DNA of 64,000 bases from contig OZ024741.1 of assembly GCA_964016885.1 (NCBI GenBank), forward strand, positions 174,406,001 through 174,470,000, written 5' to 3'. The position numbers and the translations under genes are program-made. Under the pieces are notes generated by a model. The model was not told the DNA's origin. It saw nothing but the letters and a program-made list of their open reading frames with translations, and did no database searches. Shown here piece after piece: positions 15,035 to 57,969 of this stretch. How positions within the stretch are numbered: the first letter of the stretch is position 1; every line of letters starts with the position of its first letter. The stretch comes from Eledone cirrhosa. Lineage: Eukaryota.

Positions 15035-15063
15035 CTGTCAATGTACGTTGTTCAATAAATAAT

Positions 15064-15189: not shown

Positions 15190-15240
15190 ATAAATAATAA
15201 TTTAAAACATCACTGTTTGGTATCAACCTTATTATATATA

Positions 15241-15700
15241 TCATCATCATCATCATCATCATTGTTGTTGTTTTAATATCCACTTTCCCTGCTAGCAAGG
15301 GTTGGATGGGTCTACATAGACCAAGTCAGTACTGAAGCAGGGTTACTGACCTTCCAGACAAGCTGGGTACCTGCATCTTGCCTATGTATGGTTTCACATT
15401 CTACCGAGCGCACAAGGGAGGTTGTCATGTCTTTGGCACAGCTGAGGGTCCTTCCAGCCCTTTGTCTGGCACGCTTTCTGTGACTGGATGCACATCCTAT
15501 CACCACCGAATTTACAGTGTGTACTGAGTGCATTTATCGTGTAGATCACCAAAACTAGGGAGGTTGTCATGTCTTTGACATGACTGAAAGGTCTTCTCAA
15601 CCCTTTGTTTGGAAAGCTTTTTATGGACAGATGCCCTTTATATCAGCAACCACTTTACAGCATATACTGAGTGTGTTTATCGTGTAGATTAACAAACACT
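15241..15700 (-). mobile_element. (GAT)n-tailed SINE-like element with an internal ~141-bp tandem duplication
   Basis: (cat)n then aatatccactttccctgctagcaagggttggatgg. gggaggttgtcatgtctttg occurs at ~15416 and ~15558. Confidence 0.7.
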
Positions 15701-33700: not shown

Positions 33701-34424
33701 CTATATACTCACAACCAGTGACTCACTACTCTATATATTCACAGCCAATGATTCCCTACTCTGTATACTCTCAGCCAGCAACTCACTAGTCTATTTAATC
33801 ATAGCCTGTAATTCACTACTCTATATACTCAGAGCCACTAACTCACTACTCTGTATACTCACAGCCAATGATTCAATACTCTATATACTCACAGCCAGCA
33901 ACTCACTACTCTGTATACTCACAGCCAATGATTCCCTACTCTGTATACTCTCAGCCAGCAACTCACTACTCTATATACTCACTACTCCATATACTCAGCC
34001 AGCAACTTACTACTCTATATACTCACAGCCAGCAACTCACTACTCTATATACTCACAGCCAGTGACTTACTACTCTATACACTCACAGCCAGTAACTCTC
34101 TACTCTATATACTCACAGCCAGCAACTCACTAATCTATATACTCACAGCCAGCAAATCACTACTCTATATACTCACAACCAGTGACTCACTACTCTGTAT
34201 ACTCACAGCCAGGGATTCAATACTCTATATACTCACAGCCAGCAACTCACTACTCTATATACTCACAGCCATTGACTTACTAATCTATATATTCACAGCC
34301 AGTAACTCTCTACTCTATATACTCACAGCCGGTGATTCAATACTCTATATACTCACAGCCAGTAAATCACTACTCTATATACTCACAGCCAGTGCCTCAC
34401 TGTTTTATATACTCACAGCAAGCC

Positions 34425-35164
34425 AAGATCTTGAGCCCACTTATTTCAAACCATACTTCTCTGCAGCATGTAACAGAAGAATTCACCTGCACCTTCATTA
34501 CAGACGGGGTCACCTGTTTCTGTGTCCCAGATGGCATCTTATCAGACCATGGACCTCAATTCCCCTCAAATCTGTGGAATGACATGTGTGGGCTCTTTGG
34601 CATCAACATGAAACACACAAAAGCCTTTCCCCAGCAGAGGCTGTAATAAGCATGTCCCACCGACCCTTGATGATTAACTGTTGCCAAAGAACCAATTAAC
34701 TACATAACAATCAACAGTTCTAAGGGGGAGCTATGTAGAACATTACCTTTGAGCTTATAAAAGATAAACTATTAACTGTGTTCATTTACTGCAAACTTGG
34801 TGTTTGACTCTGCAGTGGGAAATTTTCCCAGTGGCCTTTACAGTATGTCTGGACTTCAGAGGTTGTTCTTTCTTTCTTACATCTGTAAATGTTTGTTGTT
34901 GAATAAATAATAATCCAACAAATCACTGTTTGCTGTTAACCTTATTATGAATATAGTGTAACAAAGCTGTGCTAGTACTGTAAACCATGCAAATAAAATT
35001 AAGAACTCATTATTATCTAACTGTTTTGATACCAAAACAACATGAACTGTCCTTAGTTTTATGATACAAAACTGTTCATCCTTATATTGAAACTTTCCAT
35101 CATAATTTTATCATAATTTTATGTAAGAACATTTTGTTTCTAACATCAGCTTAACTTCAAAAAC
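34425..35164. repeat. Cassette copy 1 (Gypsy integrase remnant + exon-like segment + truncated MITE)
   Basis: Starts aagatcttga and ends aaaaac|agcctgtaactc. Carries an 11-bp duplication (cataattttat x2). Confidence 0.95.
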
Positions 35165-37496
35165 AGCCTGTAACTCACTACTCTATATACTCACAGCCTG
35201 TAACTCACTACTCTATATACTCACAGCCTGTAACTCACTACTCTATATACTCAGAGCCAGCAACTCACTACTCTGTATACTCACAGCCTATGATTCACTA
35301 CTCTATATACTCACAGCCAGCAACTCACTACTCTGTATACTCACAGTCAATGATTCCCTACTCCATATACTCACAGCCAACAACTTACTACTCTATATAC
35401 TCACAGCCAGCATCTCACTACTCTGTATACTCACAGCCTGCAACTCATTACTCTATATACTCACAGCCAGCAGCAACTCACTACTCTATATACTCACAGC
35501 CAGCAACTCATTACTCTATATACTCACAGCCTGTAAGTCACTACTCTATATACTCACAGCCAACAACTCACTACACTGTATACTCACAGCCAATTTTTCA
35601 CTATATATACTCACAGCCAGCAACTCACTACTCTGTATACTCACAGCCTGTAACCTACTAATCCATATACTCACAGCCAGCAACTCACTACTCTATATAC
35701 TCACAACCAGTGACTCACTAATCTGTATACTCATAGCCTATGATTCACTACTCTGTATACTCTCAGCCAGCAATTAACTACTTTATATACTCACAGCCAG
35801 TGACTTACTACTCTATATACTCACAGCCAGTAACGCTCTAATCTATATACTCTCAGCCAGCAACTCACTACTCTATATACTCTCAGCCAGCAACTCATTA
35901 CTCTATATACTCTCAGCCTGTAACTCACTACTCTATATACTCACAGCCAGTAACTTACTACTCTATATACTCACAGCCATCAACTCACTACTCTGTATAC
36001 TCACAGCCAATGATTCACTACTCTATATACTCACAGCCAGCAACTCACTACTCTGTATACTCACAGCCAGTGACTTACTACTCTATATACTCACAGCTAG
36101 TAACTCCCTACTCCATATTCTCACAGCCAGCAACTAACTTCTCCTTATCCTCTCAGCCAGCAACTCACTACTCTGTATAATCACAACCAGTTACTCACGA
36201 CTCCATATACTCGCAGCCAATGACTCACTACTCTATATACCCACAGCCAGCAACTCAATACTCTGTATACTCACAGCCAGTGATTCACGACTCCATATAC
36301 TCACAGCCAGCAACTCACTACTCTATATACTCACAGTGAGTGACTCACTGCTCTATGTACTCACAGCCAATGATTCACTACTCTGTATACTCTCAGCCAG
36401 CACCTTACTACTCTATATACTCTCAGCCAGTGACTTACTACACTATATACTCACAGCCAGTAACTCTCTACTCCATATACTCACAGCCAGCAACTCACTA
36501 CTCTGTATACACACAGCCTGTAACTCATTACTCTATATACTCACAGCCTGCAACTCACTACTCTATATACTCACAGCCAGCAACTCACTACTCTGCATAC
36601 TCACAGCCAATGATTCACAAATCTATATACTCACAGCCAGCAACTCACTGCTCTGTATACTCACAGACTGTAACTCACTACTCCATATAATCACAGCCAG
36701 TAACTCACTACTCTATATACTCACAACCAGTGACTCACTACTCTATATATTCACAGCCAATGATTGCCTACTCTGTATACTCTCAGCCAGCAACTCACTA
36801 GTCTATTTTCTCATAGCCTGTAACTCACTACTCTATATACTCAGAGCCAGCAACTCACTACTCTGTATACTCACAGCCGATGATTCACTACTCTATATAC
36901 TCACAGCCAGCAACTCACTACTCTGTATACTCGCAGCCAATGATTCCCTACTCTGTATACTCTCAGCCAGCAACTCACTACTCTATATACTCACTACTCC
37001 ATATACTCAGCCAGCAACTTACTACTCTATATACTCACAGCCAGCAGCTCAGTGCTCTATATACTCACAGCCAGTGACTTACTACTCTATACTCTCACAA
37101 CCAGTAACTCTCTACTCTATATACTCACAGCCAGCAACTCACTAATCTATATACTCACAGCCAGCAACTCACTACTCTATATACTCACAGTCAGTAACTC
37201 ACTACTCCATATACTCACAGCCATGAACTCACTACTCTATATACTCAGAACCAGTGACTCACTACTCTGTATACTCATAGCCAGTGATTCAATACTCTAT
37301 ATACTCACAGCCAGCAACTCACTACTCTATATACTCACAGCCAGTGACTTACTACTCTATATATTCACAGCCAGTAACTCTCTACTCTATATACTCACAG
37401 CCAGTGATTCAATACTCTATATACTCACAGCCAGTAAATCACTACTCTATATACTCACAGCCAGTGCCTCACTGTTTTATATACTCACAGCAAGCC

Positions 37497-38225
37497 AAGA
37501 TCTTGATCCCACTTATTTCAAACCATACTTCTCTGCAGCATGTAACAGAAGAATTCACCTGCACCTTCATTACAGACGTGGTCACCTGTTTCTGTGTCCC
37601 AGATGGAATCTTATCAGACCATGGACCTCAATTCACCTCAAAGCTGTGAAATGACATGTGTGGGCTCTTTGGCATCAACATGAAACACACAAAAGCCTTT
37701 CCCCAGCAGAGGCTGTCATAAGCATGTCCCACCTACCCTTGATGATTAACAGTTGTCAAAGAACCAATTAACTACACAACAATCAACAGTTCTAAGGGGG
37801 AGCTATGTAGAACATTACCTTTGAGCTTATAAAAGATAAACTGTTAACTGTGTTCATTTACTGCAAACTTGGTGTTTGACTCTGCAGTGGGAAATTTTCC
37901 CAGTGGGCTTTACAGTATGTCTGGACTTCAGAGGTTGTTCTTTCTTTCTTACATCTGTCAATGTTTGTTGTTGAATAAATAATAATCCAACAAATCACTG
38001 TTTGGTGTTAACCTTATTATGAATATAGTTTAACAAAGCTATGCTAGTACTGTAAACCATGCAAATAAAATTAAGAACTCATTATTTTCTAACTGTTTTG
38101 ATACCAAAACAACATAAACTGTCCTTAGTTTTATGATACAAAACTGTTCATTCTTATATTGAAACTTTCCATCAAAATTTTATGTAAGAACATTTATTTT
38201 CTAACATCAGCTTAGCTTGAAAAAC
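37497..38225. repeat. Cassette copy 2
   Basis: Same junctions. TGA stop in the integrase frame. Confidence 0.95.
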
Positions 38226-40617
38226 AGCCTGTAACTCACTACTCTATATACTCACAGCCTGTAACTCACTACTCTATATACTCAGAGCCAGCAACTCATT
38301 ACTCTATATACTCACAGCCAGCATCTCACTACTCTATATACTCACAGCCAGCAACTCATTACTCTATATACTCACAGCCTGTAAGTCACTACTCTATATA
38401 CTCACAGCCAACAACTCACTACACTGTATACTCACAACCTATGATTCACTACTCTATATACTCACAGCCAGCAACTCACTACTCTGTATACTCACAGTCA
38501 ATGATTCCCTACTCCATATACTCACAGCCAACAACTTACTACTCTATATACTCACAGCCAGCATCTCACTACTCTGTATACTCACAGCCTGCAACTCATT
38601 ACTCTATATACTCACAGCCAGCATCTCACTACTCTATATACTCACAGCCAGCAACTCATTACTCTATATACTCACAGCCTGTAAGTCACTACTCTATATA
38701 CTCACAGCCAACAACTCACTACACTGTATACTCACAGCCAATTTTTCACTACTCTATATACTCACAGCCAGCAACTCACTACTCTGTATACTCACAGCCT
38801 GTAACCTACTACTCCATATACTCACAGCCAGCAACTCACTACTCTATATACTCACAACCAGTGACTCACTAATCTGTTTACTCATAGCCTATGATTCACT
38901 ACTCTGTATACTCTCAGCCAGCAATTAACTACTTTATATACTCACAGCCAGTAACGCTCTAATCTATATACTCTCAGCCAGCAACTCACTACTCTATATA
39001 CTCTCAGCCAGCAACTCATTACTCTATATACTCTCAGCCTGTAACTCACTACTCTATATACTCACAGCCAGTAACTTACTACTCTATATACTCACAGCCA
39101 TCAACTCACTACTCTGTATACTCACAGCCAATGATTCACTACTCTATATACTCACAGCCAGCAACTCACTACTCTGTATACTCACAGCCAGTGACTTACT
39201 ACTCTATATACTCACAGCTAGTAACTCCCTACTCCATATTCTCACAGCCAGCAACTAACTTCTCCTTATCCTCTCAGCCAGCAACTCACTACTCTGTATA
39301 ATCACAACCAGTTACTCACGACTCCATATACTCGCAGCCAATGACTCACTACTCTATATACCCACAGCCAGCAACTCAATACTCTGTATACTCACAGCCA
39401 GTGATTCACGACTCCATATACTCACAGCCAGCAACTCACTACTCTATATACTCACAGTGAGTGACTCACTGCTCTATGTACTCACAGCCAATGATTCACT
39501 ACTCTGTATACTCTCAGCCAGCACCTTACTACTCTATATACTCTCAGCCAGTGACTTACTACACTATATACTCACAGCCAGTAACTCTCTACTCCATATA
39601 CTCACAGCCAGCAACTCACTACTCTGTATACACACAGCCTGTAACTCATTACTCTATATACTCACAGCCTGCAACTCACTACTCTATATACTCACAGCCA
39701 GCAACTCACTACTCTGCATACTCACAGCCAATGATTCACAAATCTATATACTCACAGCCAGCAACTCACTGCTCTGTATACTCACAGACTGTAACTCACT
39801 ACTCCATATAATCACAGCCAGTAACTCACTACTCTATATACTCACAACCAGTGACTCACTACTCTATATATTCACAGCCAATGATTGCCTACTCTGTATA
39901 CTCTCAGCCAGCAACTCACTAGTCTATTTTCTCATAGCCTGTAACTCACTACTCTATATACTCAGAGCCAGCAACTCACTACTCTGTATACTCACAGCCG
40001 ATGATTCACTACTCTATATACTCACAGCCAGCAACTCACTACTCTGTATACTCGCAGCCAATGATTCCCTACTCTGTATACTCTCAGCCAGCAACTCACT
40101 ACTCTATATACTCACTACTCCATATACTCAGCCAGCAACTTACTACTCTATATACTCACAGCCAGCAGCTCAGTGCTCTATATACTCACAGCCAGTGACT
40201 TACTACTCTATACTCTCACAACCAGTAACTCTCTACTCTATATACTCACAGCCAGCAACTCACTAATCTATATACTCACAGCCAGCAACTCACTACTCTA
40301 TATACTCACAGTCAGTAACTCACTACTCCATATACTCACAGCCATGAACTCACTACTCTATATACTCAGAACCAGTGACTCACTACTCTGTATACTCATA
40401 GCCAGTGATTCAATACTCTATATACTCACAGCCAGCAACTCACTACTCTATATACTCACAGCCAGTGACTTACTACTCTATATATTCACAGCCAGTAACT
40501 CTCTACTCTATATACTCACAGCCAGTGATTCAATACTCTATATACTCACAGCCAGTAAATCACTACTCTATATACTCACAGCCAGTGCCTCACTGTTTTA
40601 TATACTCACAGCAAGCC

Positions 40618-41346
40618 AAGATCTTGATCCCACTTATTTCAAACCATACTTCTCTGCAGCATGTAACAGAAGAATTCACCTGCACCTTCATTACAGACGT
40701 GGTCACCTGTTTCTGTGTCCCAGATGGAATCTTATCAGACCATGGACCTCAATTCACCTCAAAGCTGTGAAATGACATGTGTGGGCTCTTTGGCATCAAC
40801 ATGAAACACACAAAAGCCTTTCCCCAGCAGAGGCTGTCATAAGCATGTCCCACCTACCCTTGATGATTAACAGTTGTCAAAGAACCAATTAACTACACAA
40901 CAATCAACAGTTCTAAGGGGGAGCTATGTAGAACATTACCTTTGAGCTTATAAAAGATAAACTGTTAACTGTGTTCATTTACTGCAAACTTGGTGTTTGA
41001 CTCTGCAGTGGGAAATTTTCCCAGTGGGCTTTACAGTATGTCTGGACTTCAGAGGTTGTTCTTTCTTTCTTACATCTGTCAATGTTTGTTGTTGAATAAA
41101 TAATAATCCAACAAATCACTGTTTGGTGTTAACCTTATTATGAATATAGTTTAACAAAGCTATGCTAGTACTGTAAACCATGCAAATAAAATTAAGAACT
41201 CATTATTTTCTAACTGTTTTGATACCAAAACAACATAAACTGTCCTTAGTTTTATGATACAAAACTGTTCATTCTTATATTGAAACTTTCCATCAAAATT
41301 TTATGTAAGAACATTTATTTTCTAACATCAGCTTAGCTTGAAAAAC
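40618..41346. repeat. Cassette copy 3
   Basis: Apparently identical to copy 2, 3121 bp downstream. Confidence 0.95.
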
Positions 41347-43678
41347 AGCCTGTAACTCACTACTCTATATACTCACAGCCTGTAACTCACTACTCTATAT
41401 ACTCAGAGCCAGCAACTCATTACTCTATATACTCACAGCCAGCATCTCACTACTCTATATACTCACAGCCAGCAACTCATTACTCTATATACTCACAGCC
41501 TGTAAGTCACTACTCTATATACTCACAGCCAACAACTCACTACACTGTATACTCACAACCTATGATTCACTACTCTATATACTCACAGCCAGCAACTCAC
41601 TACTCTGTATACTCACAGTCAATGATTCCCTACTCCATATACTCACAGCCAACAACTTACTACTCTATATACTCACAGCCAGCATCTCACTACTCTGTAT
41701 ACTCACAGCCTGCAACTCATTACTCTATATACTCACAGCCAGCATCTCACTACTCTATATACTCACAGCCAGCAACTCATTACTCTATATACTCACAGCC
41801 TGTAAGTCACTACTCTATATACTCACAGCCAACAACTCACTACACTGTATACTCACAGCCAATTTTTCACTACTCTATATACTCACAGCCAGCAACTCAC
41901 TACTCTGTATACTCACAGCCTGTAACCTACTACTCCATATACTCACAGCCAGCAACTCACTACTCTATATACTCACAACCAGTGACTCACTAATCTGTTT
42001 ACTCATAGCCTATGATTCACTACTCTGTATACTCTCAGCCAGCAATTAACTACTTTATATACTCACAGCCAGTAACGCTCTAATCTATATACTCTCAGCC
42101 AGCAACTCACTACTCTATATACTCTCAGCCAGCAACTCATTACTCTATATACTCTCAGCCTGTAACTCACTACTCTATATACTCACAGCCAGTAACTTAC
42201 TACTCTATATACTCACAGCCATCAACTCACTACTCTGTATACTCACAGCCAATGATTCACTACTCTATATACTCACAGCCAGCAACTCACTACTCTGTAT
42301 ACTCACAGCCAGTGACTTACTACTCTATATACTCACAGCTAGTAACTCCCTACTCCATATTCTCACAGCCAGCAACTAACTTCTCCTTATCCTCTCAGCC
42401 AGCAACTCACTACTCTGTATACTCACAACCAGTTACTCACGACTCCATATACTCGCAGCCAATGACTCACTACTCTATATACCCACAGCCAGCAACTCAA
42501 TACTCTGTATACTCACAGCCAGTGATTCACGACTCCATATACTCACAGCCAGCAACTCACTACTCTATATACTCACAGTGAGTGACTCACTGCTCTATGT
42601 ACTCACAGCCAATGATTCACTACTCTGTATACTCTCAGCCAGCACCTTACTACTCTATATACTCTCAGCCAGTGACTTACTACACTATATACTCACAGCC
42701 AGTAACTCTCTACTCCATATACTCACAGCCAGCAACTCACTACTCTGTATACACACAGCCTGTAACTCATTACTCTATATACTCACAGCCTGCAACTCAC
42801 TACTCTATATACTCACAGCCAGCAACTCACTACTCTGCATACTCACAGCCAATGATTCACAAATCTATATACTCACAGCCAGCAACTCACTGCTCTGTAT
42901 ACTCACAGACTGTAACTCACTACTCCATATAATCACAGCCAGTAACTCACTACTCTATATACTCACAACCAGTGACTCACTACTCTATATATTCACAGCC
43001 AATGATTGCCTACTCTGTATACTCTCAGCCAGCAACTCACTAGTCTATTTTCTCATAGCCTGTAACTCACTACTCTATATACTCACAGCCAGCAACTCAC
43101 TACTCTGTATACTCGCAGCCAATGATTCCCTACTCTGTATACTCTCAGCCAGCAACTCACTACTCTATATACTCACTACTCCATATACTCAGCCAGCAAC
43201 TTACTACTCCATATACTCACAGCCAGCAGCTCAGTGCTCTATATACTCACAGCCAGTGACTTACTACTCTATACTCTCACAACCAGTAACTCTCTACTCT
43301 ATATACTCACAGCCAGCAACTCACTAATCTATATACTCACAGCCAGCAACTCACTACTCTATATACTCACAGTCAGTAACTCACTACTCCATATACTCAC
43401 AGCCATGAACTCACTACTCTATATACTCAGAACCAGTGACTCACTACTCTGTATACTCATAGCCAGTGATTCAATACTCTATATACTCACAGCCAGCAAC
43501 TCACTACTCTATATACTCACAGCCAGTGACTTACTACTCTATATATTCACAGCCAGTAACTCTCTACTCTATATACTCACAGCCAGTGATTCAATACTCT
43601 ATATACTCACAGCCAGTAAATCACTACTCTATATACTCACAGCCAGTGCCTCACTGTTTTATATACTCACAGCAAGCC

Positions 43679-44417
43679 AAGATCTTGATCCCACTTATTT
43701 CAAACCATACTTCTCTGCAGCATGTAACAGAAGAATTCACCTGCACCTTCATTACAGACGGGGTCACCTGTTTCTGTGTCCCAGATGGCATCTTATCAGA
43801 CCATGGACCTCAATTCACCTCAAAGCTGTGAAATGACATGTGTGGGCTCTTTGGCATCAACATGAAACACACAAAAGCCTTTCCCCAGCAGAGGCTGTCA
43901 TAAGCATGTCCCACCAACCCTTGATGATTAACAGTTGTCAAAGAACCAATTAACTACACAACAATCAACAGTTCTAATGGGGAGCTATGTAGAACATTAC
44001 CTTTGAGCTTATAAAAGATAAACTGTTAACTGTGTTCATTTACTGCAAACTTGGTGTTTGACTCTGCAGTGGGAAATTTTCCAGTGGGCTTTACAGTATG
44101 TCTGGACTTCAGAGGTTGTTCTTTCTTTCTTACATCTGTAAATGTTTGTTGTTGAATAAATAATAATCCAACAAATCACTGTTTGCTGTTAACCTTATTA
44201 TGAATATAGTGTAACAAAGCTGTGCTAGTACTGTAAACCATGCAAATAAAATTAAGAACTCATTATTATCTAACTGTTTTGATACCAAAACAACATGAAC
44301 TGTCCTTAGTTTTATGATACAAAACTGTTCATCCTTATATTGAAACTTTCCATCATAATTTTATCATAATTTTATGTAAGAACATTTTGTTTCTAACATC
44401 AGCTTAACTTCAAAAAC
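43679..44417. repeat. Cassette copy 4 (mosaic of copy 2/3-type left part and copy 1-type right part)
   Basis: TGA stop as in copies 2/3. The 11-bp duplication and aacttcaaaaac are as in copy 1. Confidence 0.93.
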
Positions 44418-47167
44418 AGCCTGTAACTCACTACTCTATATACTCACAGCCTGTAACTCACTACTCTATATACTCACAGCCTGTAACTCACTACTCTATA
44501 TACTCAGAGCCAGCAACTCACTACTCTGTATACTCACAGCCTATGATTCACTACTCTATATACTCACAGCCAGCAACTCACTACTCTGTATGCTCACAGC
44601 CAATGATTCCCTACTCCATATACTCACAGCCAGCAACTTACTACTCTATATACTCACAGCCAGTGTCTTACTATTCTATACACTCAGAGCCAGTAACTCT
44701 CTACTGTATATACTCACAGCCAGCAACTCACTACTTTATATACTCACAGCCAGCAACTCACTACTCTATATACTCACAGCCAGCAACTCACTACTCTGTA
44801 TACTCACAGCCAATGATTCCCTACTCCATATACTCATAGCCAGCAACTTACTACTCTATATACTCACAGCCAGCAACTCCCTACTCTATATACTCACAGC
44901 CAGTGTCTTACTACTCTATACACTCACAGCCAGTAACTCTCTACTCTATATACTCACAGCCAGCAACTCACTACTCTATATACTCACAGCCAGCATCTCA
45001 CTACTCTATATACTCACAGCCAGCAACTCACTACTCTGTATACTCACAGCCTGTAACTCACTACTCTATATACTCACAGCCTGTAACTCACTACTCTATA
45101 TACTCAGAGCCAACAACTCACTACTCTGTATACGCACAGCCAATGATTCACTACTCTATATACTCACAGCCAGCAACTCACTACTCTGTATACTCACAGC
45201 CAATGATTCCCTACTCTGTATACTCTTAGCCAGCAACTCACTACTCTATATACTCACTACTCCATATACTCAGCCAGCAACCTACTACTCTATATACTCA
45301 CAGCCAGCAACTCACTACTCTGTATACTCACAGCCAATGATTCACTACTCTATATAGTCACAGCCAGCCACTCACTACTCTATATACTCTCAGCCAGCAA
45401 CTCATTACTCTATATCCTCTCAGCCTTTAACTCACTAATCTATATACTCACAGCCAGTGACTTACTACTCTATATACTCAGAGCCAGTAACTCTCTACTC
45501 TATATACTCACAGCTAGTAACTCACTACTCCATATACTCACAGCCAACAACTAACTACTCCATGTCCTCCCAGCCAGCAACTCACTACTCTATATAATCT
45601 CAGCCAGCAACTCATTACTCTATATCTTCTCAGCCTTTAACTCACTACTCTATATACTCACAGCCAGTAACTCTCTACTCCATATACTCACAGCCAGCAA
45701 CTCACTACTCTGTATACTCACAGCCTGTAACTCATTATTCTATATACTCACAGCCTGTAACTCACTACTCTATATACTCACAGCCAGCAACTCACTACTC
45801 TGTATACTCACAGCCAATGATTCACAACTCTATATACTCACAGCCAGCAACTCACTGCTCTGTATACTCACAGCCTGTAACTCGCTACTCTATATACTCA
45901 CAACTAGTGACTCACTACTCTATATATTCACAGCCAATGATTTCCTACTCTGTATACTCTCAGCCAGCAACTCACTAGTCTATTTACTCATAGCCTGTAA
46001 CTCACTACTCTATATACTGAGAGCTAGCAACTCACTACTATGTATACTCACAGCCAATGATTCACTACTCTATATACTCACAGCCAGCAACTCACTACTC
46101 TGTATACTCACTACTCCATAAACTCAGCCAGCAACTTACTACTCTATATATTCACAGCCAGCAACTCTCTACTCTATATACTCACAGCCAGTGACTTACT
46201 ACTCTATACACTCACAGCCAGTAACTCTCTACTCTATATACTCACAGCCAGCAACTCACTAATCTATATACACACAGCCAGCAACTCACTACTCTTTATA
46301 CTCACAGCCTATGATTCACTACTCTATATACTCACCGCCAGCAACTCACTACTCTGTATACTCACAGCCAATGATTCCCTACTCCATATACTCACAGCCA
46401 GCATCTTACTACTCTATATACTCACAGCCAGCAACTCACTACTCTATATACTCACAGCCAGCAACTCACTTCTCTATATACTCACAGCCAGCAGCTCACT
46501 ACTCTGTATACTCACAGCCAGTAACTCACTACTCTATATACTCACAGCCTGTAACTCACTACTCTATATACTCAGAGCCAGCAACTCACTACTCTGTATA
46601 CTCGCAGCCAATGATTCACTACTCTATATAGTCACAGCCAGCAACTCACTACTCTATATACTCACTACTCCATATACTCAGCCAGCAACCTACTACTCAA
46701 TATACTCACAGCCAGCAACTCACTACTCTATATACTCACAGCCAGTGACTTACTACTCTATACACTCACAGCCAGTAACTCTCTACTCTATATACTCACA
46801 GCCAGCAACTCACTACACTATATACTCGCAGCTAGTGACTCACTATTCCATATACTCTCAGCCAGCAACTCACTACTCCATATACTCACAGCCAGCAACT
46901 CACTACTCTACATACTCACAACCAGTGACTCACTACTCTGTATACTCACAGCCAGTGATTCAATACTCTATATACTCACAGCCAGCAACTCACTACTCTA
47001 TATACGCACAGCCAGTGACTTACTACTCTATATATTCACAACCAGTAACTCTCTACTCTATATACGCACAGCCAGTGATTCAATACTCTATATACTCACA
47101 GCCAGTAACTCACTACTCTATATACTCACAGCCAGTGACTCACTGTTTTATATACTCACAGCAAACC

Positions 47168-47896
47168 AAGATCTTGATCCCACTTATTTCAAACCATACT
47201 TCTCTGCAGCATGTAACAGAAGAATTCACCTGCACCTTCATTACAGACGGGGTCACCTGTTTCTGTGTCCCAGATGGCATCTTGTCAGACCATGCACCTC
47301 AATTCACCTCAAAGCTGTGGAATGACATGTGTGGGCTCTTTGACATCAACATGAAACACACAAAAGCCTTTCCCCAGCAGAGGCTGTCATAAGCATGTCC
47401 CACCGACCCTTGATGATTAACTGTTGCCAAAGAACCAATTAACTACACAACAATCAACAGTTCTAAGGGGGAGCTATGTAGAACATTACCTTTGAGCTTA
47501 TAAAAGATAAACTGTTAACTGTGTTCATTTACTGCAAACTTGGTGTTTGACTCTGCAGTGGGAAATTTTCCCAGTGGGCTTTACAGTATGTCTGGACTTC
47601 AGAGGTTGTTCTTTCTTTCTTACATCTGTCAATGTTTGTTATTGAATAAATAATAATCCAACAAATCACTGTTTGCTGTTAACCATATTATGAATATAGT
47701 TTAACAAAGCTATGCTAGTACTGTAAACCATGCAAATAAAATTAAGAACTCATTATTTTTCAACTGTTTTGATTCCAAAACAACATAAACTGTCCTTAGT
47801 TTTATGATACAAAACTGTTCATTCTTATATTGAAACTTTCCATCATAATTTTATGTAAGAACATTTTGTTTCTAACATCAGCATAACTTGAAAAAC
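47168..47896. repeat. Cassette copy 5
   Basis: SDHAPQF variant. Confidence 0.95.
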
Positions 47897-48728
47897 AGCC
47901 TGTAACTCACTACTCTATATACTCACAGCCTGTAACTCACTACTCTATATACTCACAGCCTGTAACTCACTACTCTATATACTCAGAGCCAGCAACTCAC
48001 TACTCTGTATACTCACAGCCTATGATTCACTACTCTATATACTCACAGCCAGCAACTCACTACTCTGTATACTCGCAGCCAATGATTCACTACTCTATAT
48101 ACTCCCAGCCAGCAACTCACTACTCTGTATACTCACAGCCAATGATTCCCTACTCTGTTTACTCTCAGCCAGCAACTCACTACTCTATATACTCACTACT
48201 CCATATACTCAGCCAGCAACCTACTACTTTATATACTCACAGCCAGCAACTCACTACTCTATATACTCACAGCCAGTGACTTACTACTCTATACACTCAC
48301 AGCCAGTAACTCTCTACTCTATATACTCACAGTCAGCAACTCACTACTCTATATACTCACAGCCAGTGACTCACTACTTCATATACTCTCAGCCAGCAAC
48401 TCACTACTCTATATACTCCCAGCCAGTGACTCACTATTCCATATACTCACAGCCAGCAACTCACTACTCTATATACTCACAGCCAGTAACTCACTACTCC
48501 ATATACTCACAGCCAGCAACTCACTACTCTACATACTCACAACCAGTGACTCACTACTCTATATACTCACAGCCAGTGACTTACTACTCTATATATTCAC
48601 AGCCAGTAACTCTCTACTCCATATACTCACAGCCAGTGATTCAATGCTCTATATACTCACAGCCAGTAACTCACTACTCTATATACTCACAGCCAGTGAC
48701 CCACTGTTTTATATACTCACAGCTAACC

Positions 48729-49457
48729 AAGATCTTGATCCCACTTATTTCAAACCATACTTCTCTGCAGCATGTAACAGAAGAATTCACCTGCACCTTC
48801 ATTACAGACGGGGTCACCTGTTTCTGTGTCCCAGATGGCATCTTGTCAGACCATGCACCTCAATTCACCTCAAAGCTGTGGAATGACATGTGTGGGCTCT
48901 TTGACATCAACATGAAACACACAAAAGCCTTTCCCCAGCAGAGGCTGTCATAAGCATGTCCCACCGACCCTTGATGATTAACTGTTGCCAAAGAACCAAT
49001 TAACTACACAACAATCAACAGTTCTAAGGGGGAGCTATGTAGAACATTACCTTTGAGCTTATAAAAGATAAACTGTTAACTGTGTTCATTTACTGCAAAC
49101 TTGGTGTTTGACTCTGCAGTGGGAAATTTTCCCAGTGGGCTTTACAGTATGTCTGGACTTCAGAGGTTGTTCTTTCTTTCTTACATCTGTCAATGTTTGT
49201 TATTGAATAAATAATAATCCAACAAATCACTGTTTGCTGTTAACCATATTATGAATATAGTTTAACAAAGCTATGCTAGTACTGTAAACCATGCAAATAA
49301 AATTAAGAACTCATTATTTTTCAACTGTTTTGATTCCAAAACAACATAAACTGTCCTTAGTTTTATGATACAAAACTGTTCATTCTTATATTGAAACTTT
49401 CCATCATAATTTTATGTAAGAACATTTTGTTTCTAACATCAGCATAACTTGAAAAAC
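48729..49457. repeat. Cassette copy 6
   Basis: 1561 bp after copy 5. Confidence 0.95.
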
Positions 49458-50289
49458 AGCCTGTAACTCACTACTCTATATACTCACAGCCTGTAACTCA
49501 CTACTCTATATACTCACAGCCTGTAACTCACTACTCTATATACTCAGAGCCAGCAACTCACTACTCTGTATACTCACAGCCTATGATTCACTACTCTATA
49601 TACTCACAGCCAGCAACTCACTACTCTGTATACTCGCAGCCAATGATTCACTACTCTATATACTCCCAGCCAGCAACTCACTACTCTGTATACTCACAGC
49701 CAATGATTCCCTACTCTGTTTACTCTCAGCCAGCAACTCACTACTCTATATACTCACTACTCCATATACTCAGCCAGCAACCTACTACTTTATATACTCA
49801 CAGCCAGCAACTCACTACTCTATATACTCACAGCCAGTGACTTACTACTCTATACACTCACAGCCAGTAACTCTCTACTCTATATACTCACAGTCAGCAA
49901 CTCACTACTCTATATACTCACAGCCAGTGACTCACTACTTCATATACTCTCAGCCAGCAACTCACTACTCTATATACTCCCAGCCAGTGACTCACTATTC
50001 CATATACTCACAGCCAGCAACTCACTACTCTATATACTCACAGCCAGTAACTCACTACTCCATATACTCACAGCCAGCAACTCACTACTCTACATACTCA
50101 CAACCAGTGACTCACTACTCTATATACTCACAGCCAGTGACTTACTACTCTATATATTCACAGCCAGTAACTCTCTACTCCATATACTCACAGCCAGTGA
50201 TTCAATGCTCTATATACTCACAGCCAGTAACTCACTACTCTATATACTCACAGTCAGTGACCCACTGTTTTATATACTCACAGCTAACC

Positions 50290-51018
50290 AAGATCTTGAT
50301 CCCACTTATTTCAAACCATACTTCTCTGCAGCATGTAACAGAAGAATTCACCTGCACCTTCATTACAGACGGGGTCACCTGTTTCTGTGTCCCAGATGGC
50401 ATCTTGTCAGACCATGCACCTCAATTCACCTCAAAGCTGTGGAATGACATGTGTGGGCTCTTTGACATCAACATGAAACACACAAAAGCCTTTCCCCAGC
50501 AGAGGCTGTCATAAGCATGTCCCACCGACCCTTGATGATTAACTGTTGCCAAAGAACCAATTAACTACACAACAATCAACAGTTCTAAGGGGGAGCTATG
50601 TAGAACATTACCTTTGAGCTTATAAAAGATAAACTGTTAACTGTGTTCATTTACTGCAAACTTGGTGTTTGACTCTGCAGTGGGAAATTTTCCCAGTGGG
50701 CTTTACAGTATGTCTGGACTTCAGAGGTTGTTCTTTCTTTCTTACATCTGTCAATGTTTGTTATTGAATAAATAATAATCCAACAAATCACTGTTTGCTG
50801 TTAACCATATTATGAATATAGTTTAACAAAGCTATGCTAGTACTGTAAACCATGCAAATAAAATTAAGAACTCATTATTTTTCAACTGTTTTGATTCCAA
50901 AACAACATAAACTGTCCTTAGTTTTATGATACAAAACTGTTCATTCTTATATTGAAACTTTCCATCATAATTTTATGTAAGAACATTTTGTTTCTAACAT
51001 CAGCATAACTTGAAAAAC
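50290..51018. repeat. Cassette copy 7
   Basis: 1561 bp after copy 6. Confidence 0.95.
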
Positions 51019-51850
51019 AGCCTGTAACTCACTACTCTATATACTCACAGCCTGTAACTCACTACTCTATATACTCACAGCCTGTAACTCACTACTCTAT
51101 ATACTCAGAGCCAGCAACTCACTACTCTGTATACTCACAGCCTATGATTCACTACTCTATATACTCACAGCCAGCAACTCACTACTCTGTATACTCGCAG
51201 CCAATGATTCACTACTCTATATACTCCCAGCCAGCAACTCACTACTCTGTATACTCACAGCCAATGATTCCCTACTCTGTTTACTCTCAGCCAGCAACTC
51301 ACTACTCTATATACTCACTACTCCATATACTCAGCCAGCAACCTACTACTTTATATACTCACAGCCAGCAACTAACTACTCTATATACTCACAGCCAGTG
51401 ACTTACTACTCTATACACTCACAGCCAGTAACTCTCTACTCTATATACTCACAGTCAGCAACTCACTACTCTATATACTCACAGCCAGTGACTCACTACT
51501 TCATATACTCTCAGCCAGCAACTCACTACTCTATATACTCCCAGCCAGTGACTCACTATTCCATATACTCACAGCCAGCAACTCACTACTCTATATACTC
51601 ACAGCCAGTAACTCACTACTCCATATACTCACAGCCAGCAACTCACTACTCTACATACTCACAACCAGTGACTCACTACTCTATATACTCACAGCCAGTG
51701 ACTTACTACTCTATATATTCACAGCCAGTAACTCTCTACTCCATATACTCACAGCCAGTGATTCAATGCTCTATATACTCACAGCCAGTAACTCACTACT
51801 CTATATACTCACAGCCAGTGACCCACTGTTTTATATACTCACAGCTAACC

Positions 51851-52579
51851 AAGATCTTGATCCCACTTATTTCAAACCATACTTCTCTGCAGCATGTAAC
51901 AGAAGAATTCACCTGCACCTTCATTACAGACGGGGTCACCTGTTTCTGTGTCCCAGATGGCATCTTATCAGACCATGGACCTCAATTCCCCTCAAATCTG
52001 TGGAATGACATGTGTGGGCTCTTTGACATCAACATGAAACACACAAAAGCCTTTCCCCAGCAGAGGCTGTCATAAGCATGTCCCACCGACCCTTGATGAT
52101 TAACAGTTGCCAAAGAACCAATTAACTACGTAACAATCAACAGTTCTAAGGGGGAGCTATGTAGAACATTACCTTTGAGCTTATAAAAGATAAACTGTTA
52201 ACTGTGTTCATTTACTGCAAACTTGGTGTTTGACTCTGCAGTGGGAAATTTTCCCAGTGGGCTTTACAGTATGTCTGGACTTCAGAGGTTGTTCTTTCTT
52301 TCTTACATCTGTCAATGTTTGTTGTTGAATAAATAATAATCCAACAAATCACTGTTTGCTGTTAACCTTATTATGAATATAGTTTAACAAAGCTATGGTA
52401 GTACTGTAAACCATGCAAATAAAATTAAGAACTCATTATTTTTTAACTGTTTTGATACCAAAACAACATAAACTGTCCTTAGTTTTATGATACAAAACTG
52501 TTCATTCTTATATTGAAACTTTCCATCATAATTTTATGTTAGAACATTTTGTTTCTAACATCAGCTTAACTTGAAAAAC
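51851..52579. repeat. Cassette copy 8
   Basis: 1561 bp after copy 7. QFPSNL variant shared with copy 1. Confidence 0.95.
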
Positions 52580-54495
52580 AGCCTGTAACTCACTACTCTA
52601 TATACTCACAGCCTGTAACTCACTACTCTATATACTCAGAGCCAGCAACTCACTACTCTGTATACTCACAGCCTATGATTCACTAATCTATATACTCACA
52701 GCCAGCAACTCACTACTCTGTATACTCATAGCCAATGATTCCCTACTCTGTATACTCTCAGCCAGCAACTCTCTACTCTATATACTCACTACTCCATATA
52801 CTCACAGCCAGCAACTTACTACTCTATATACTCACAGCCAGCAACTCACTACTCTATATACTCACATCCAGTGACTTACTATTCTATACACTCACAGCCA
52901 GTAACTCTCTACTCTATATACTCACAGCAAGCAACTCACTACTCTATATACTCACAGCCAGCAACTCACTACTCTATATAGTCACAGCCAGCAACTCACT
53001 ACTCTGTATTCTCACAGCCTGTAACTCACTACTCTATATACTCACAGCCTGTAACTCACTACTCTATATACTCAGAGCCAGCAACTCACTACTCTGTATA
53101 CTCGCAGCCAATGATTCACTACTCTATATACTCGCAGCCAGCAACTCACTACTCTGTATACTCATAGCCAATGATTCCCTACTCTGTATACTCTCAGCCA
53201 GCAACTCACTACTCTATATACTCACTACTCCATATACTCACAGCCAGCAACTTACTACTCTATATACTCACAGCCAGCAACTCACTACTCTATATACTCA
53301 CAGCCAGTGACTTACTACTCTATACACTCACAGCCAGTAACTCTCTACTCTATATACTCGCAGCCAGCAACTCACTACTCTATATACTCACAGCCAGCAA
53401 CTCACTACTCTATATACTCACAGCCAGTGACTCACTACTTCATATACTCACAGCCAGCAACTCACTACTCTATATACTCCCAGCCAGTGACTCACTATTC
53501 CATATTGTCACAGCCAGCAACTCACTACTCTATATATTCACAGCCAGTAACTCACTACTCCATATACTCACAGCCAGCAACTCACTATTCTATATACTCA
53601 CAACTAGTGACTCACTACTCTGTATACTCACAGCCAATGATTCCCTACTCCATATACTCACAGCCAGCAACTTACTACTCTATATACTCACAGCCAGTGA
53701 CTTACTACTCTATACACTCACAGCCAGTAACTCTCTACTCTATATACTCACAGCCAGCAACTCACTACTCTATATACTCACAGCCAGCAACTCACTACTC
53801 TATATACTCACAGCCAGCAACTCACTACTCTGTATACTCACAGCCTGTAACTCACTACTCTATATTCTCAGAGCCAGCAACTCACTACTCTGTATACTCG
53901 CAGCCAATGATTCACTACTCTATATACTCACAGCCAGCAACTCACTACTCTGTATACTCACAGCCAATGATTCCATACTCTGTATACTCTCAGCCAGCAA
54001 CTCACTACTCTATATACTCACTACTCTATACACTCACAGCCAGTAACTCTCTACTCTATATACTCACAGCCAGCAACTCACTACTCTATATACTCACAGC
54101 CAGCAACTCACTACTCTATATACTCCCAGCCAGTGACTCACTATTCCATATACTCACAGCCAGCAACTCACTACGCTATATATTCACTGCAAGTAACTCA
54201 CTACTCCATATACTCACAGCCAGCAACTCACTACTCTATATACTCACAACCAATGACTCACTACTCTGTATACTCACAGCCAGTGATTCAATACTCTATA
54301 TACTCACAGCCATCAACTCACTACTCTATATACTCACAGCCAGTGACTTACTACTCTATATATTCACAGCCAGTAACTCTCTACTCTATATACTCACAGC
54401 CAGTGATTTAATACTCTATTTACTCACAGCCAGTAACTCACTACTCTATATACTCACAGCCAGTGACTCACTGTTTTATATACTCACAGCAAACC

Positions 54496-55224
54496 AAGAT
54501 CTTGATCCCACTTATTTCAAACCATACTTCTCTGCAGCATGTAACAGAAGAATTCACCTGCACCTTCATTACAGACGGGGTCACCTGTTTCTGTGTCCCA
54601 GATGGCATCTTATCAGACCATGGACCTCAATTCACCTCAAAGCTGTGGAATGACATGTGTGGGCTCTTTGGCATCAACATGAAACACACAAAAGCCTTTC
54701 CCCAGCAGAGGCTGTCATAAGCATGTCCCACCGACCCTTGATGATTAACAGTTGCCAAAGAACCAATTAACTACGTAACAATCAACAGTTCTAAGGGGGA
54801 GCTATGTAGAACATTACCTTTGAGCTTATAAAAGATAAACTGTTAACTGTGTTCATTTACTGCAAACTTGGTGTTTGACTCTGCAGTGGGAAATTTTCCC
54901 AGTGGGCTTTACAGTATGTCTGGACTTCAGAGGTTGTTCTTTCTTTCTTACATCTGTCAATGTTTGTTGTTGAATAAATAATAATCCAACAAATCACTGT
55001 TTGCTGTTAACCTTATTATGAATATAGTTTAACAAAGCTATGCTAGTACTGTAAACCATGCAAATAAAATTAAGAACTCATTATTTTTTAACTGTTTTGA
55101 TACCAAAACAACATAAACTGTCCTTAGTTTTATGATACAAAACTGTTCATTCTTATATTGAAACTTTCCATCATAATTTTATGTTAGAACATTTTGTTTC
55201 TAACATCAGCTTAACTTGAAAAAC
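54496..55224. repeat. Cassette copy 9
   Basis: 2645 bp after copy 8. Confidence 0.95.
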
Positions 55225-57159
55225 AGCCTGTAACTCACTACTCTATATACTCACAGCCTGTAACTCACTACTTTATATACTCAGAGCCAGCAACTCACTA
55301 CTCTGTATACTCACAGCCTATGATTCACTAATCTATATACTCACAGCCAGCAACTCACTACTCTGTATACTCATAGCCAATGATTCCCTACTCTGTATAC
55401 TCTCAGCCAGCAACTCTCTACTCTATATACTCACTACTCCATATACTCACAGCCAGCAACTTACTACTCTATATACTCACAGCCAGCAACTCACTACTCT
55501 ATATACTCACATCCAGTGACTTACTATTCTATACACTCACAGCCAGTAACTCTCTACTCTATATACTCACAGCAAGCAACTCACTACTCTATATACTCAC
55601 AGCCAGCAACTCACTACTCTATATACTCACAGCCAGCAACTCACTACTCTGTATTCTCACAGCCTGTAACTCACTACTCTATATACTCACAGCCTGTAAC
55701 TCACTACTCTATATACTCAGAGCCAGCAACTCACTACTCTGTATACTCGCAGCCAATGATTCACTACTCTATATACTCGCAGCCAGCAACTCACTACTCT
55801 GTATACTCATAGCCAATGATTCCCTACTCTGTATACTCTCAGCCAGCAACTCACTACTCTATATACTCACTACTCCATATACTCACAGCCAGCAACTTAC
55901 TACTCTATATACTCACAGCCAGCAACTCACTACTCTATATACTCACAGCCAGTGACTTACTACTCTATACACTCACAGCCAGTAACTCTCTACTCTATAT
56001 ACTCGCAGCCAGCAACTCACTACTCTATATACTCACAGCCAGCAACTCACTACTCTATATACTCACAGCCAGTGACTCACTACTTCATATACTCACAGCC
56101 AGCAACTCACTACTCTATATACTCCCAGCCAGTGACTCACTATTCCATATTGTCACAGCCAGCAACTCACTACTCTATATATTCACAGCCAGTAACTCAC
56201 TACTCCATATACTCACAGCCAGCAACTCACTATTCTATATACTCACAACTAGTGACTCACTACTCTGTATACTCACAGCCAATGATTCCCTACTCCATAT
56301 ACTCACAGCCAGCAACTTACTACTCTATATACTCACAGCCAGTGACTTACTACTCTATACACTCACAGCCAGTAACTCTCTACTCTATATACTCACAGCC
56401 AGCAACTCACTACTCTATATACTCACAGCCAGCAACTCACTACTCTATATACTCACAGCCAGCAACTCACTACTCTGTATACTCACAGCCTGTAACTCAC
56501 TACTCTATATTCTCAGAGCCAGCAACTCACTACTCTGTATACTCGCAGCCAATGATTCACTACTCTATATACTCACAGCCAGCAACTCACTAATCTGTAT
56601 ACTCACAGCCAATGATTCCATACTCTGTATACTCTCAGCCAGCAACTCACTACTCTATATACTCACTACTCTATACACTCACAGCCAGTAACTCTCTACT
56701 CTATATACTCACAGCCAGCAACTCACTACTCTATATACTCACAGCCAGCAACTCACTACTCTATATACTCCCAGCCAGTGACTCACTATTCCATATACTC
56801 ACAGCCAGCAACTCACTACGCTATATATTCACTGCAAGTAACTCACTACTCCATATACTCACAGCCAGCAACTCACTACTCTATATACTCACAACCAATG
56901 ACTCACTACTCTGTATACTCACAGCCAGTGATTCAATACTCTATATACTCACAGCCAGCAACTCACTACTCTATATACTCACAGCCAGTGACTTACTACT
57001 CTATATATTCACAGCCAGTAACTCTCTACTCTATATACTCACAGCCAGTGATTTAATACTCTATTTACTCACAGCCAGTAACTCACTACTCTATATACTC
57101 ACGGCCAGTGACTCACTGTTTTATATACTCACAGCAAGCCAAGATCTTGATCCCACTTA

Positions 57160-57390
57160 TTTCAAACCATACTTCTCTGCAGCATGTAACAGAAGAATTC
57201 ACCTGCACCTTCATTACAGACGGGGTCACCTGTTTCTGTGTCCCAGATGGCATCTTATCAGACCATGGACCTCAATTCACCTCAAAGCTGTGGAATGACA
57301 TGTGTGGGCTCTTTGGCATCAACATGAAACACACGAAAGCCTTTCCCCAGCAGAGGCTGTCATAAGCATGTCCCACCGACCCTTGATGAT
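57160..57390 (+). pseudogene. Ty3/Gypsy LTR-retrotransposon integrase core (rve) remnant, present in all 10 cassette copies
   Basis: LQHVTEEFTCTFITDGVTCFCVPDGILSDHGPQFTSKLWNDMCGLFGINMKHTKAFPQ matches the Gypsy integrase pattern F..W..FG.P..I.SD.G.QF.S..W...C...GI....T.AYHPQ. It breaks down before the catalytic Glu; HRPL follows in another frame. Confidence 0.85.
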
Positions 57391-57501
57391 TAACAGTTGC
57401 CAAAGAACCAATTAACTACACAACAATCAACAGTTCTAAGGGGGAGCTATGTAGAACATTACCTTTGAGCTAATAAAAGATAAACTGTTAACTGTGTTCA
57501 T

Positions 57502-57598
57502 TTACTGCAAACTTGGTGTTTGACTCTGCAGTGGGAAATTTTCCCAGTGGGCTTTACAGTATGTTTGGACTTCAGAGGTTGTTCTTTCTTTCTTACAT
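57502..57598 (-). CDS. Candidate terminal exon in the cassette (xCKKERTTSEVQTYCKAHWENFPLQSQTPSLQ*), repeated in each copy
   Basis: Acceptor tttacag/ttgacag, and paralog of 14932-15034. No protein family recognised; frame ambiguous. Confidence 0.3.
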
Positions 57599-57732
57599 CT
57601 GTAAATGTTTGTTGTTGAATAAATAATAATCCAACAAATCACTGTTTGGTGTTAACCTTATTATGAATATAGTTTAACAAAGCTATGCTAGTACTGTAAA
57701 CCATGCAAATAAAATTAAGAACTCATTATTTT

Positions 57733-57969
57733 CTAACTGTTTTGATACCAAAACAACATAAACTGTCCTTAGTTTTATGATACAAAACTTTTCATTCTTA
57801 TATTGAAACTTTCCATCATAATTTTATGTTAGAACATTTTGTTTCTAACATCAGCTTAACTTGAAAAACTTAGTTATGTTAAATTCAGCCAAATTATTGA
57901 TTATTTTCAAAATTAATTGAAACACATAGGCAGTGTCTTTCATTAGAACTATGGTAATAAAAGTGCTAA
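57733..57969. mobile_element. Degenerate TTAA-type MITE; only its left ~135 bp is present in cassette copies 1-9
   Basis: ctaa-ctgttttgatacca ... tggtaataaaagtg-ctaa. Internal similarity to 6583-7234 (cctagttttatg, ttccatcata, ttgattattttcaaaat). Confidence 0.6.

What the first reader, a model, noticed from the sequence alone, without database searches (positions are those of the whole stretch)
34425..57969. A 30-bp satellite has captured and amplified its own right flank ten times, forming a composite higher-order repeat
Seen: a ~730-bp cassette recurs at 34425, 37497, 40618, 43679, 47168, 48729, 50290, 51851, 54496 and 57141 (spacings 3072, 3121, 3061, 3489, 1561, 1561, 1561, 2645, 2645). 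Every copy is preceded by the same odd monomer (cactgttttatatactcacagc). Copies 1-9 all rejoin the satellite at the same point (aaaaac|agcctgtaactc), in the middle of a MITE that is complete only after copy 10. Inference: one illegitimate junction joined the unique flank back to the array. Unequal exchange or rolling-circle/break-induced replication then amplified [satellite block + flank] with changing block lengths. This is a snapshot of a satellite converting unique DNA into a multi-kb repeat.
Basis: partly seen in the sequence, partly recalled or inferred. Interest (0 to 1): 0.72.

Follow-up and report, generated by a model that had tools for sequence, protein, structure and literature searches.

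The report
Minisatellite that outgrew its host retrotransposon
A 30-base motif inside a decayed retrotransposon has grown into a 41-kb array, and the array's last stretch plus the element's own tail now sits in ten diverged, patchwork copies, likely from one mis-joining followed by repeated unequal recombination; it is a clear new example of a known way in which satellite DNA arises from transposons.

Summary
The structure is confirmed; part of the interpretation changes. Ten 734-745 bp cassettes lie at the reported spacings. Copies 1-9 end at the same base, inside a dispersed MITE that is whole only after copy 10, at a 2-bp microhomology. The cassette is not unique flank. It is the 3' end of a decayed Gypsy-type LTR retrotransposon (integrase fragment, purine tract, 3' LTR) plus 43 bp of flank and half a MITE. 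That element's 5' LTR and primer-site-like motif lie just left of the array, and the two LTRs are each other's best genome hits, so about 1,150 monomers sit inside one insertion. A paralogue has the same layout with 18.8 monomers, another has about 2, three related segments have 1. The 'odd monomer' junction is inherited from the element; only the right junction is new. Copies differ by 0-25 substitutions, are mosaic, and came in several rounds from a founding unit of about 1.5 kb, which favours unequal exchange over one rolling-circle burst. Short-read contigs support several diverged copies; the exact number needs long reads. Known kind (retrotransposon-derived satellite, satellite-TE co-duplication); a tidy worked example. 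Interest 0.38.

The parts
14901..15722 (+). Decayed 5' LTR in three pieces (14901-15063, 15190-15241, about 15700-15722), split by a SINE-like insertion (about 15064-15189) and a 457-bp dispersed repeat (15245-15701); its first ~20 bp are not recognisable next to a MITE at about 14660-14888
   Evidence: best genome-wide hits are the ten cassette LTRs (84-86%); 86.3% identical to the copy-10 LTR over 226 columns
15723..15737 (+). Primer-binding-site-like motif directly after the 5' LTR end
   Evidence: window sequence; like motifs follow the 5' LTR in L077, L067, L071; the PBS label is from my knowledge of Gypsy elements, tRNA pairing not tested
15757..15959 (+). 5' internal region of the element; about 750 bp that follow in the paralogue are missing here
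   Evidence: 71% identical to L076 and L077
15997..34419 (+). Uninterrupted 30-bp array, 614 monomers, with its own internal duplications (e.g. offset 5673, 99.5% over 1745 bp)
34420..35164 (+). Cassette copy 1 (745 bp; 11-bp duplication shared with copy 4)
37492..38225 (+). Cassette copy 2
   Evidence: identical to copy 3
40613..41346 (+). Cassette copy 3
   Evidence: 1 difference in 4151 bp against the preceding unit
43674..44417 (+). Cassette copy 4, a recombinant: left part copy-2/3-like, right part identical to copy 1
47163..47896 (+). Cassette copy 5 (starts the three 1561-bp units)
48724..49457 (+). Cassette copy 6
50285..51018 (+). Cassette copy 7
51846..52579 (+). Cassette copy 8, copy-9-like on the right, with copy-6/7-like and copy-1-like letters on the left
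   Evidence: variable columns 1-181
54491..55224 (+). Cassette copy 9
57136..57166 (+). Copy 10: internal element sequence that follows the last monomer (inherited junction)
   Evidence: colinear with L095; the same anchor follows the single monomer in L124, L127, L129
57167..57348 (+). Copy 10: integrase core fragment, frameshifted; about 500 bp of integrase 3' sequence present in relatives is missing right after it
   Evidence: Pfam rve E 2.2e-4, below the curated cut-off; dispersed matches 76-91%; spacing in relatives
57438..57449 (+). Copy 10: purine tract before the 3' LTR
   Evidence: window sequence; same motif before the 3' LTR in L067, L069, L071, L072, L073
57450..57687 (+). Copy 10: 3' LTR (present in all ten cassettes)
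   Evidence: ends fixed by LTR pairs in L067 and L071
57733..57969 (+). Decayed TTAA-type MITE in the flank, whole only here; copies 1-9 stop at the base equivalent to 57869
57868..57869 (+). 2-bp microhomology (AC) shared by the MITE break point and the monomer it was joined to
35165..57135 (+). Nine interposed monomer blocks of 2327, 2387, 2327, 2745, 827, 827, 827, 1911, 1911 bp; a marker monomer with a 14-bp insertion lies 446-536 bp before all ten cassettes and nowhere in the array before 33974

Best explanation
The 30-bp array lies between the two LTRs of one decayed Gypsy-type retrotransposon, and its end was likely duplicated once by a microhomology mis-join and then multiplied by repeated unequal exchange into ten mosaic [monomers + element tail] units. 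Steps: (1) Shown: related sequences carry the 30-bp motif once (L124, L127, L129), about twice (L096) or 18.8 times (L095) in the 5' internal region, and L095 has the same join from the last monomer into the integrase fragment. (2) Inferred: a non-autonomous deletion derivative with a short array inserted here long ago (LTR-LTR K2P 0.15); the array grew to hundreds of monomers in place, and SINEs and MITEs landed in and beside the element. (3) Shown junction, inferred pathway: one repair or template-switch event with 2 bp of microhomology joined the middle of the flanking MITE to a monomer about 26 units upstream of the array end, giving a tandem duplication of about 1.5 kb. (4) Inferred from graded divergence and mosaics: unequal crossover and gene conversion, much later than the insertion (cassette K2P at most 0.035), changed the copy number, while out-of-register pairing within monomers changed block lengths. 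Nothing suggests a function; it is most likely neutral turnover.
For: Left LTR's ten best genome hits are the cassette LTRs, 84-86%, against 69-73% for seven other hits and 81% over 63 bp for one (19 of 19 candidates scored). Pairwise: 86-88% against 69-78% for 12 of 13 other LTRs. Paralogue L095 runs 5' LTR, PBS-like motif, internal region, 18.8 monomers, same junction, integrase, 3' LTR, with CTAG on both sides. Relatives show RT, H2C2 and rve pieces in Gypsy order. One junction in 9 of 9 copies, microhomology AC. The 827-bp block aligns to the last 737-797 bp of blocks 0-4, ending at the cassette (scores 490-528 against 323-387 for five control pieces); the marker monomer precedes 10 of 10 cassettes. 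Recombination: 84 of 528 site pairs incompatible, minimum 7 events, permutation p 0.03; copy 4 switch, longest run 12 of 24 sites, p 0.0003. Divergence classes 0-1, 5-12, 12-25 substitutions. Short-read contigs: cassette word depth 51-56, 24-28, 39-41 against 8.1, 6.9, 4.4 on the single-copy flank; 12 of 13 listed variant positions between 57136 and 57790 match assembly variants.
Against: No target-site duplication could be read at the 5' end, where the LTR start is obscured. One other LTR (L012) reaches 83% to the left LTR, so the pairing margin is modest. In blocks 8 and 9 the 827-bp block aligns best to an internal sub-repeat, not the end. Whether the founding unit was 1.5 kb or longer is inferred. 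Recurrent mutation or haplotype switching in the assembly could mimic some mosaics. The depth figures are not copy numbers, come from one sample that may be the assembly's own source, and no listed contig or read bridges the new junction (two contigs stop aligning exactly at 57869 with 20 unplaced letters). The three single-monomer segments were not shown to be whole LTR elements of this family; only L124 shows PBS-like motifs upstream. The 2-bp microhomology is short enough to be chance.
Confidence: 0.8

Rival explanations
1. Same origin inside the retrotransposon, but the copies came mainly from circle excision and rolling-circle reinsertion or break-induced replication, with recombination only as later polishing.
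For: Runs of nearly identical adjacent units: 1561 bp three times with 2 differences each, 3121 bp with 1 difference in 4151, 2645 bp with 5 in 1911. Microhomology junction. Circles of satellite DNA are documented (PMC7403614, passages seen).
Against: At least four divergence levels and five block lengths. No second new junction or template-switch scar was found. Mosaic copies with switches inside the cassette. A single burst predicts equal units.
Confidence: 0.12
2. Part of the copy number is assembly stutter or a join of two haplotypes: the near-identical neighbours (2/3, 5/6/7, 8/9) are fewer in reality.
For: Copies 2 and 3, and 6 and 7, are identical in the cassette. No long reads were available. 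X2 gives only about a fourfold depth ratio.
Against: Even the closest units differ by 1-5 bases. Copy-specific letters of groups 2/3, 2/3/4 and 5-7 appear in short-read contigs. X1 and X3 give about 6-7-fold and 9-fold ratios. Stutter cannot produce the five or six well-diverged cassette types.
Confidence: 0.06
3. The cassette is an independent mobile element, or the retrotransposon itself, that inserted ten times into the satellite.
For: It is made of transposon parts.
Against: Whole cassette only at this locus among the scored candidates. Same orientation, same preceding monomer, same half-MITE end, no flanking duplications. It lacks a 5' LTR and carries flank beyond the 3' LTR, which reverse transcription would not copy (general knowledge of LTR replication).
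Confidence: 0.02

Closest known systems
Ogre (Ty3/gypsy) retrotransposon-derived satellites of Lathyrus, including FabTR-58 (PMC7004042; passages seen, supplements not seen)
   Same: Short tandem arrays inside Gypsy elements that expand into long arrays. FabTR-58 is described as several short same-orientation arrays interlaced with Ogre sequence at fixed intervals.
   Different: Ogre arrays are in the 3' UTR of abundant plant elements. Here the motif lies on the 5' side, before an integrase remnant, in a rare animal subfamily (two clear members found), expanded at one locus, and the unit runs beyond the 3' LTR into flank and half a MITE.
Drosophila Rsp locus with duplicated G5 and Rsp-Doc5-ProtoP units (PMC5411766; passages seen)
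   Same: Satellite blocks and TE pieces duplicated together near array ends; TEs gathered at ends, which the authors relate to unequal exchange; about 1050 repeats with about 480 variants (here about 1,150 monomers, 462 variants).
   Different: There the TEs inserted into an existing satellite and inversions are involved. Here the satellite lies inside the TE and all ten units are direct repeats with one junction.
Rsp-like/1.688 hybrid junctions (PMC7403614; passages seen)
   Same: One rare microhomology junction copied many times; mixed units behave as higher-order repeats.
   Different: Those spread between loci and join two satellites; this stays at one locus and joins a satellite to its own flank.
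TE-derived tandem arrays (PMC5932611, abstract and section list seen; review PMC12628747, passages seen). A rice study of satellite and retrotransposon co-amplification by segmental duplication was seen only as a title in a reference list (not held)
   Same: TE segments, LTRs and internal repeats as substrate for expansion by unequal exchange.
   Different: Not formed by double insertion or LTR-LTR recombination: the new junction lies 182 bp outside the 3' LTR.

Membership tests
Gypsy-type LTR retrotransposon (host element) | Two direct LTRs flanking the internal region | tested here: met
   left and right LTR 86% identical and best hits of each other
Gypsy-type LTR retrotransposon (host element) | Primer binding site after the 5' LTR and purine tract before the 3' LTR | tested here: inconclusive
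   motifs are at the expected places here and in relatives; pairing with a host tRNA not tested
Gypsy-type LTR retrotransposon (host element) | Integrase downstream of reverse transcriptase | tested here: met
   in relative L071 an RVT_1 piece (E 0.0036, under cut-off) lies upstream of the integrase match; L058 has H2C2 (over cut-off) then rve. The window copy keeps only an rve fragment. BEL/Pao shares this order and was not excluded by a tree.
Gypsy-type LTR retrotransposon (host element) | Target-site duplication of 4-5 bp | tested here: inconclusive
   seen in L067 (CCAT), L095 (CTAG) and with one mismatch in L071; not readable here because the 5' LTR start is obscured
Retrotransposon-derived satellite (Ogre-like route) | Monomer present as a short array or single motif inside dispersed element copies at a fixed position | tested here: met
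   of 8 related loci with the upstream anchor, 3 have one monomer between both anchors, 1 about two, 1 a truncated match, 3 no significant match; L095 has 18.8 by TRF
Retrotransposon-derived satellite (Ogre-like route) | Array located in the 3' UTR, downstream of pol | tested here: not met
   array lies upstream of the integrase fragment, after the 5' internal region
Classical higher-order repeat | A fixed multi-monomer unit repeated with high unit-to-unit identity | tested here: not met
   block lengths 827-2745 bp; fixed units only in local runs of two or three
Genome-wide satellite family | Long arrays at several loci or high genome share | tested here: not met
   142 of 142 genome matches to a 25-mer are in the window; a paralogue-type pattern gives 7 matches at two loci. 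Exact patterns miss diverged arrays.
piggyBac-type MITE (the truncated element) | Short dispersed non-coding element with terminal inverted repeats and TTAA ends | tested here: met
   ends are decayed here; the piggyBac label is recalled from the TTAA/CCC signature
Helitron/Helentron with central repeats | Helitron-type termini flanking the array | not tested
   no dedicated scan; the flanks are accounted for by LTR-element parts

The most novel reading that the evidence does not exclude
One genome holds the whole birth series of a satellite: a single 30-bp motif in the 5' region of a Gypsy lineage (1, 2, 19, about 1,150 copies), ending in a still-recombining locus where the array has begun to amplify its own host's 3' LTR and flank. 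If alleles differ in cassette number and order between individuals, the cassette variants and marker monomers make this a natural recorder from which rates of unequal crossover against gene conversion and circle reinsertion can be read directly.
Probability: 0.35. Interest if true: 0.58.

Novelty: new member of a known kind. Interest (0 to 1): 0.38.

Why it matters
How a short motif becomes a satellite, and how arrays absorb their neighbours, is usually argued from end states. Here the intermediates (1, about 2, 19, about 1,150 monomers), both LTRs as a relative clock, one founding junction and datable, mosaic copies are all readable at base level. It is useful as a test locus for array-turnover models and shows the plant-type retrotransposon-to-satellite route in an invertebrate genome (probably a cephalopod; my inference, not tested). 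It gives no new gene, function or class of mechanism. Four literature searches on satellite-TE co-amplification and one with 'octopus' listed no report of this locus, which does not prove there is none.

Tried and rejected
(1) Monomer born from integrase codons: one frame of the monomer reads like an integrase motif, but relatives show the motif in the 5' internal region and homology to integrase starts only at cassette position 32. Rejected. (2) Window and L095 as a segmental duplicate of one insertion (both have CTAG after the 3' LTR): flank alignments no better than shuffles, p 0.23, 0.37, 0.80. Rejected; treated as separate insertions. (3) Excess of transversions among cassettes (17:26) as a sign of error-prone synthesis or sequencing error: other comparisons give 9:13, 15:15, 19:17, 2:2, 5:3 and 22:10, and 8:14 in the 65-bp array, so it is not distinctive. 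(4) Junction in other individuals: three reduced-representation runs gave no depth over the junction, no verdict. X4 shows a few reads with letters of different cassette types, too few to count copies. (5) C10:27.58 Mb hits to the paralogue's array are an unrelated 28-bp repeat. (6) No 30-bp array or cassette in 40 kb right or 30 kb left of the window. (7) Earlier findings near this place: none.

Full report
Observation. The window holds a 30-bp array from 15997 to 57135, about 1,150 monomers in 462 variants with a mean of 3.2 mismatches to the commonest one. Each is preceded by the same odd monomer, and copies 1-9 all return to the array at the same base. That base lies inside a 237-bp element with decayed TTAA-type ends; 30 scored relatives elsewhere run through the break. 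So copy 10 carries the ancestral flank and copies 1-9 end in one new junction, with two bases (AC) shared by both partners.

What the cassette is. A genome search found it whole only here (10 of 49 matches; 40 of 451 candidates scored), but two parts of it are dispersed. Positions 32-213 are an integrase core fragment (Pfam rve, E 2.2e-4, under the cut-off). Positions 315-552 are an LTR: in 20 fetched relatives, many carry the same integrase, then about 500 bp that the cassette lacks, a purine tract and this LTR; L067 and L071 have LTR pairs with 4-bp target duplications (one with a mismatch) that fix its ends. Relatives show reverse-transcriptase, zinc-finger and integrase pieces in Gypsy order (4 of 8 scanned frames had no match, and only H2C2 passed its cut-off). 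The cassette is therefore the tail of a decayed LTR retrotransposon, about 45 bp of flank and 137 bp of MITE, not unique DNA.

Where the satellite comes from. Left of the array lies a second, interrupted copy of the LTR (14901-15722) followed by a primer-site-like motif and 200 bp of internal sequence. Its ten best genome hits are the cassette LTRs (84-86%; other hits 69-73%, one 81% over 63 bp), though one further LTR, L012, reaches 83% pairwise. The internal sequence led to a paralogue on C1 (L077/L095): 5' LTR, primer-site-like motif, internal region, 18.8 copies of the same 30-bp monomer, the same join into the integrase fragment, and a partly deleted 3' LTR, with CTAG on both sides. Its flanks are unrelated to the window's. 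L096 has about two monomers between the same anchors and L124, L127 and L129 one each (p 0.002 against shuffles each); L126 has a truncated match; L123, L125 and L128 gave none. Long arrays of this monomer were found nowhere else: 142 of 142 exact 25-mer matches are in the window, and a paralogue-type pattern hits only L095 and one window site. The array thus grew inside one insertion, and the odd-monomer junction is the element's own.

How it was amplified. The two LTRs differ by K2P 0.15, the cassettes by at most 0.035, so the cassette copying began long after insertion. A marker monomer with a 14-bp insertion lies 446-536 bp before all ten cassettes and nowhere before 33974; the 827-bp block aligns with the last 737-797 bp of blocks 0-4. 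The founding duplication was thus probably about 26 monomers plus the cassette, near the 1561-bp unit. Longer blocks arose by internal re-duplication (extra markers in blocks 4, 8, 9; offsets 436, 646, 796) or by picking up more upstream array (blocks 1-3 share monomer order with the end of the main array). Copies fall into graded classes and are mosaic: 84 of 528 site pairs fail the four-gamete test, at least 7 events, permutation p 0.03. Copy 4 follows copy 2 at 10 of 12 sites on the left and copy 1 at 12 of 12 on the right (p 0.0003). This fits rounds of unequal crossover and conversion; circles or break-induced replication may have made single runs such as the three 1561-bp units and cannot be excluded. 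The junction pathway and the order of events are inferred.

Is it real? Three short-read contig sets from one sample, possibly the assembly's source, give cassette depth 51-56, 24-28 and 39-41 against 8.1, 6.9 and 4.4 on the flank, and 12 of 13 listed variant positions before the MITE match the assembly's copy-specific letters (14 further rows not shown). The tool warns that these depths are not copy numbers. Two contigs stop aligning exactly at 57869, but no listed record bridges the junction. Several diverged copies are real; the exact ten needs long reads.

Comparison. It works like the Ogre-derived satellites of Lathyrus, where short arrays inside Gypsy elements expand and one family is interlaced with element sequence (PMC7004042, passages), and like satellite-TE co-duplication at Drosophila Rsp (PMC5411766, passages) with a once-made microhomology junction (PMC7403614, passages). 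It fails the 3' UTR criterion of the Ogre route and the fixed-unit criterion of a classical higher-order repeat. I saw no supplements; figure S4q of PMC7004042 bears on how close FabTR-58 is.

Verdict. Observation confirmed, interpretation partly supported: a transposon-born minisatellite amplifying its host's tail, not unique DNA. New member of a known kind, unusually complete; interest 0.38.

Noticed in passing
window 58837-64000 and L021 1-3662: A second giant minisatellite, 65-bp period, about 136 copies at 96% identity, begins 870 bp after the MITE. Related arrays (72-79%) lie at C2:218.80-218.82 Mb, C7:27.03 Mb, C1:38.09 Mb and C6:25.46 Mb. Two unrelated large arrays side by side may mark an unstable region.
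   Followed up: partly
L024, about 7200-8970 (37.2-39.0 kb right of the window end): A third array, 38-bp period, 46.6 copies at 94%.
   Followed up: no
window 15997-34419: The main array has recent internal duplications of its own (offsets 5673/5733 at 99%+, 3480 at 100%, 5519, 5884, 2308, 1225, 960), and has far fewer CpG per monomer than the paralogue (0.14 against 1.01), which may reflect methylation decay.
   Followed up: partly
window about 15064-15189 and L077 about 1148-1365: Both 5' LTRs carry a SINE-like insertion at the same AT-rich site but of different length, probably independent hits on a preferred target.
   Followed up: no
L074, L067, L071: Short, internally deleted members of the same LTR family with both LTRs about 1.5, 4.9 and 2.8 kb apart.
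   Followed up: partly
L055, L056, L057 and further hits at C2:142.05-142.29 Mb: Five or more similar integrase-bearing copies clustered within 240 kb, L056 and L057 nearly identical and inverted: a recent segmental duplication.
   Followed up: no
window 14560-14615: A pyrimidine tract and AG followed by a short open frame ending in a stop; could be a terminal exon, which would put the element just downstream of a gene. Seen by eye only.
   Followed up: no
window 7346-7654 and 9610-9918: Small diverged tandem repeats of 72/153 bp and 95-97 bp.
   Followed up: no
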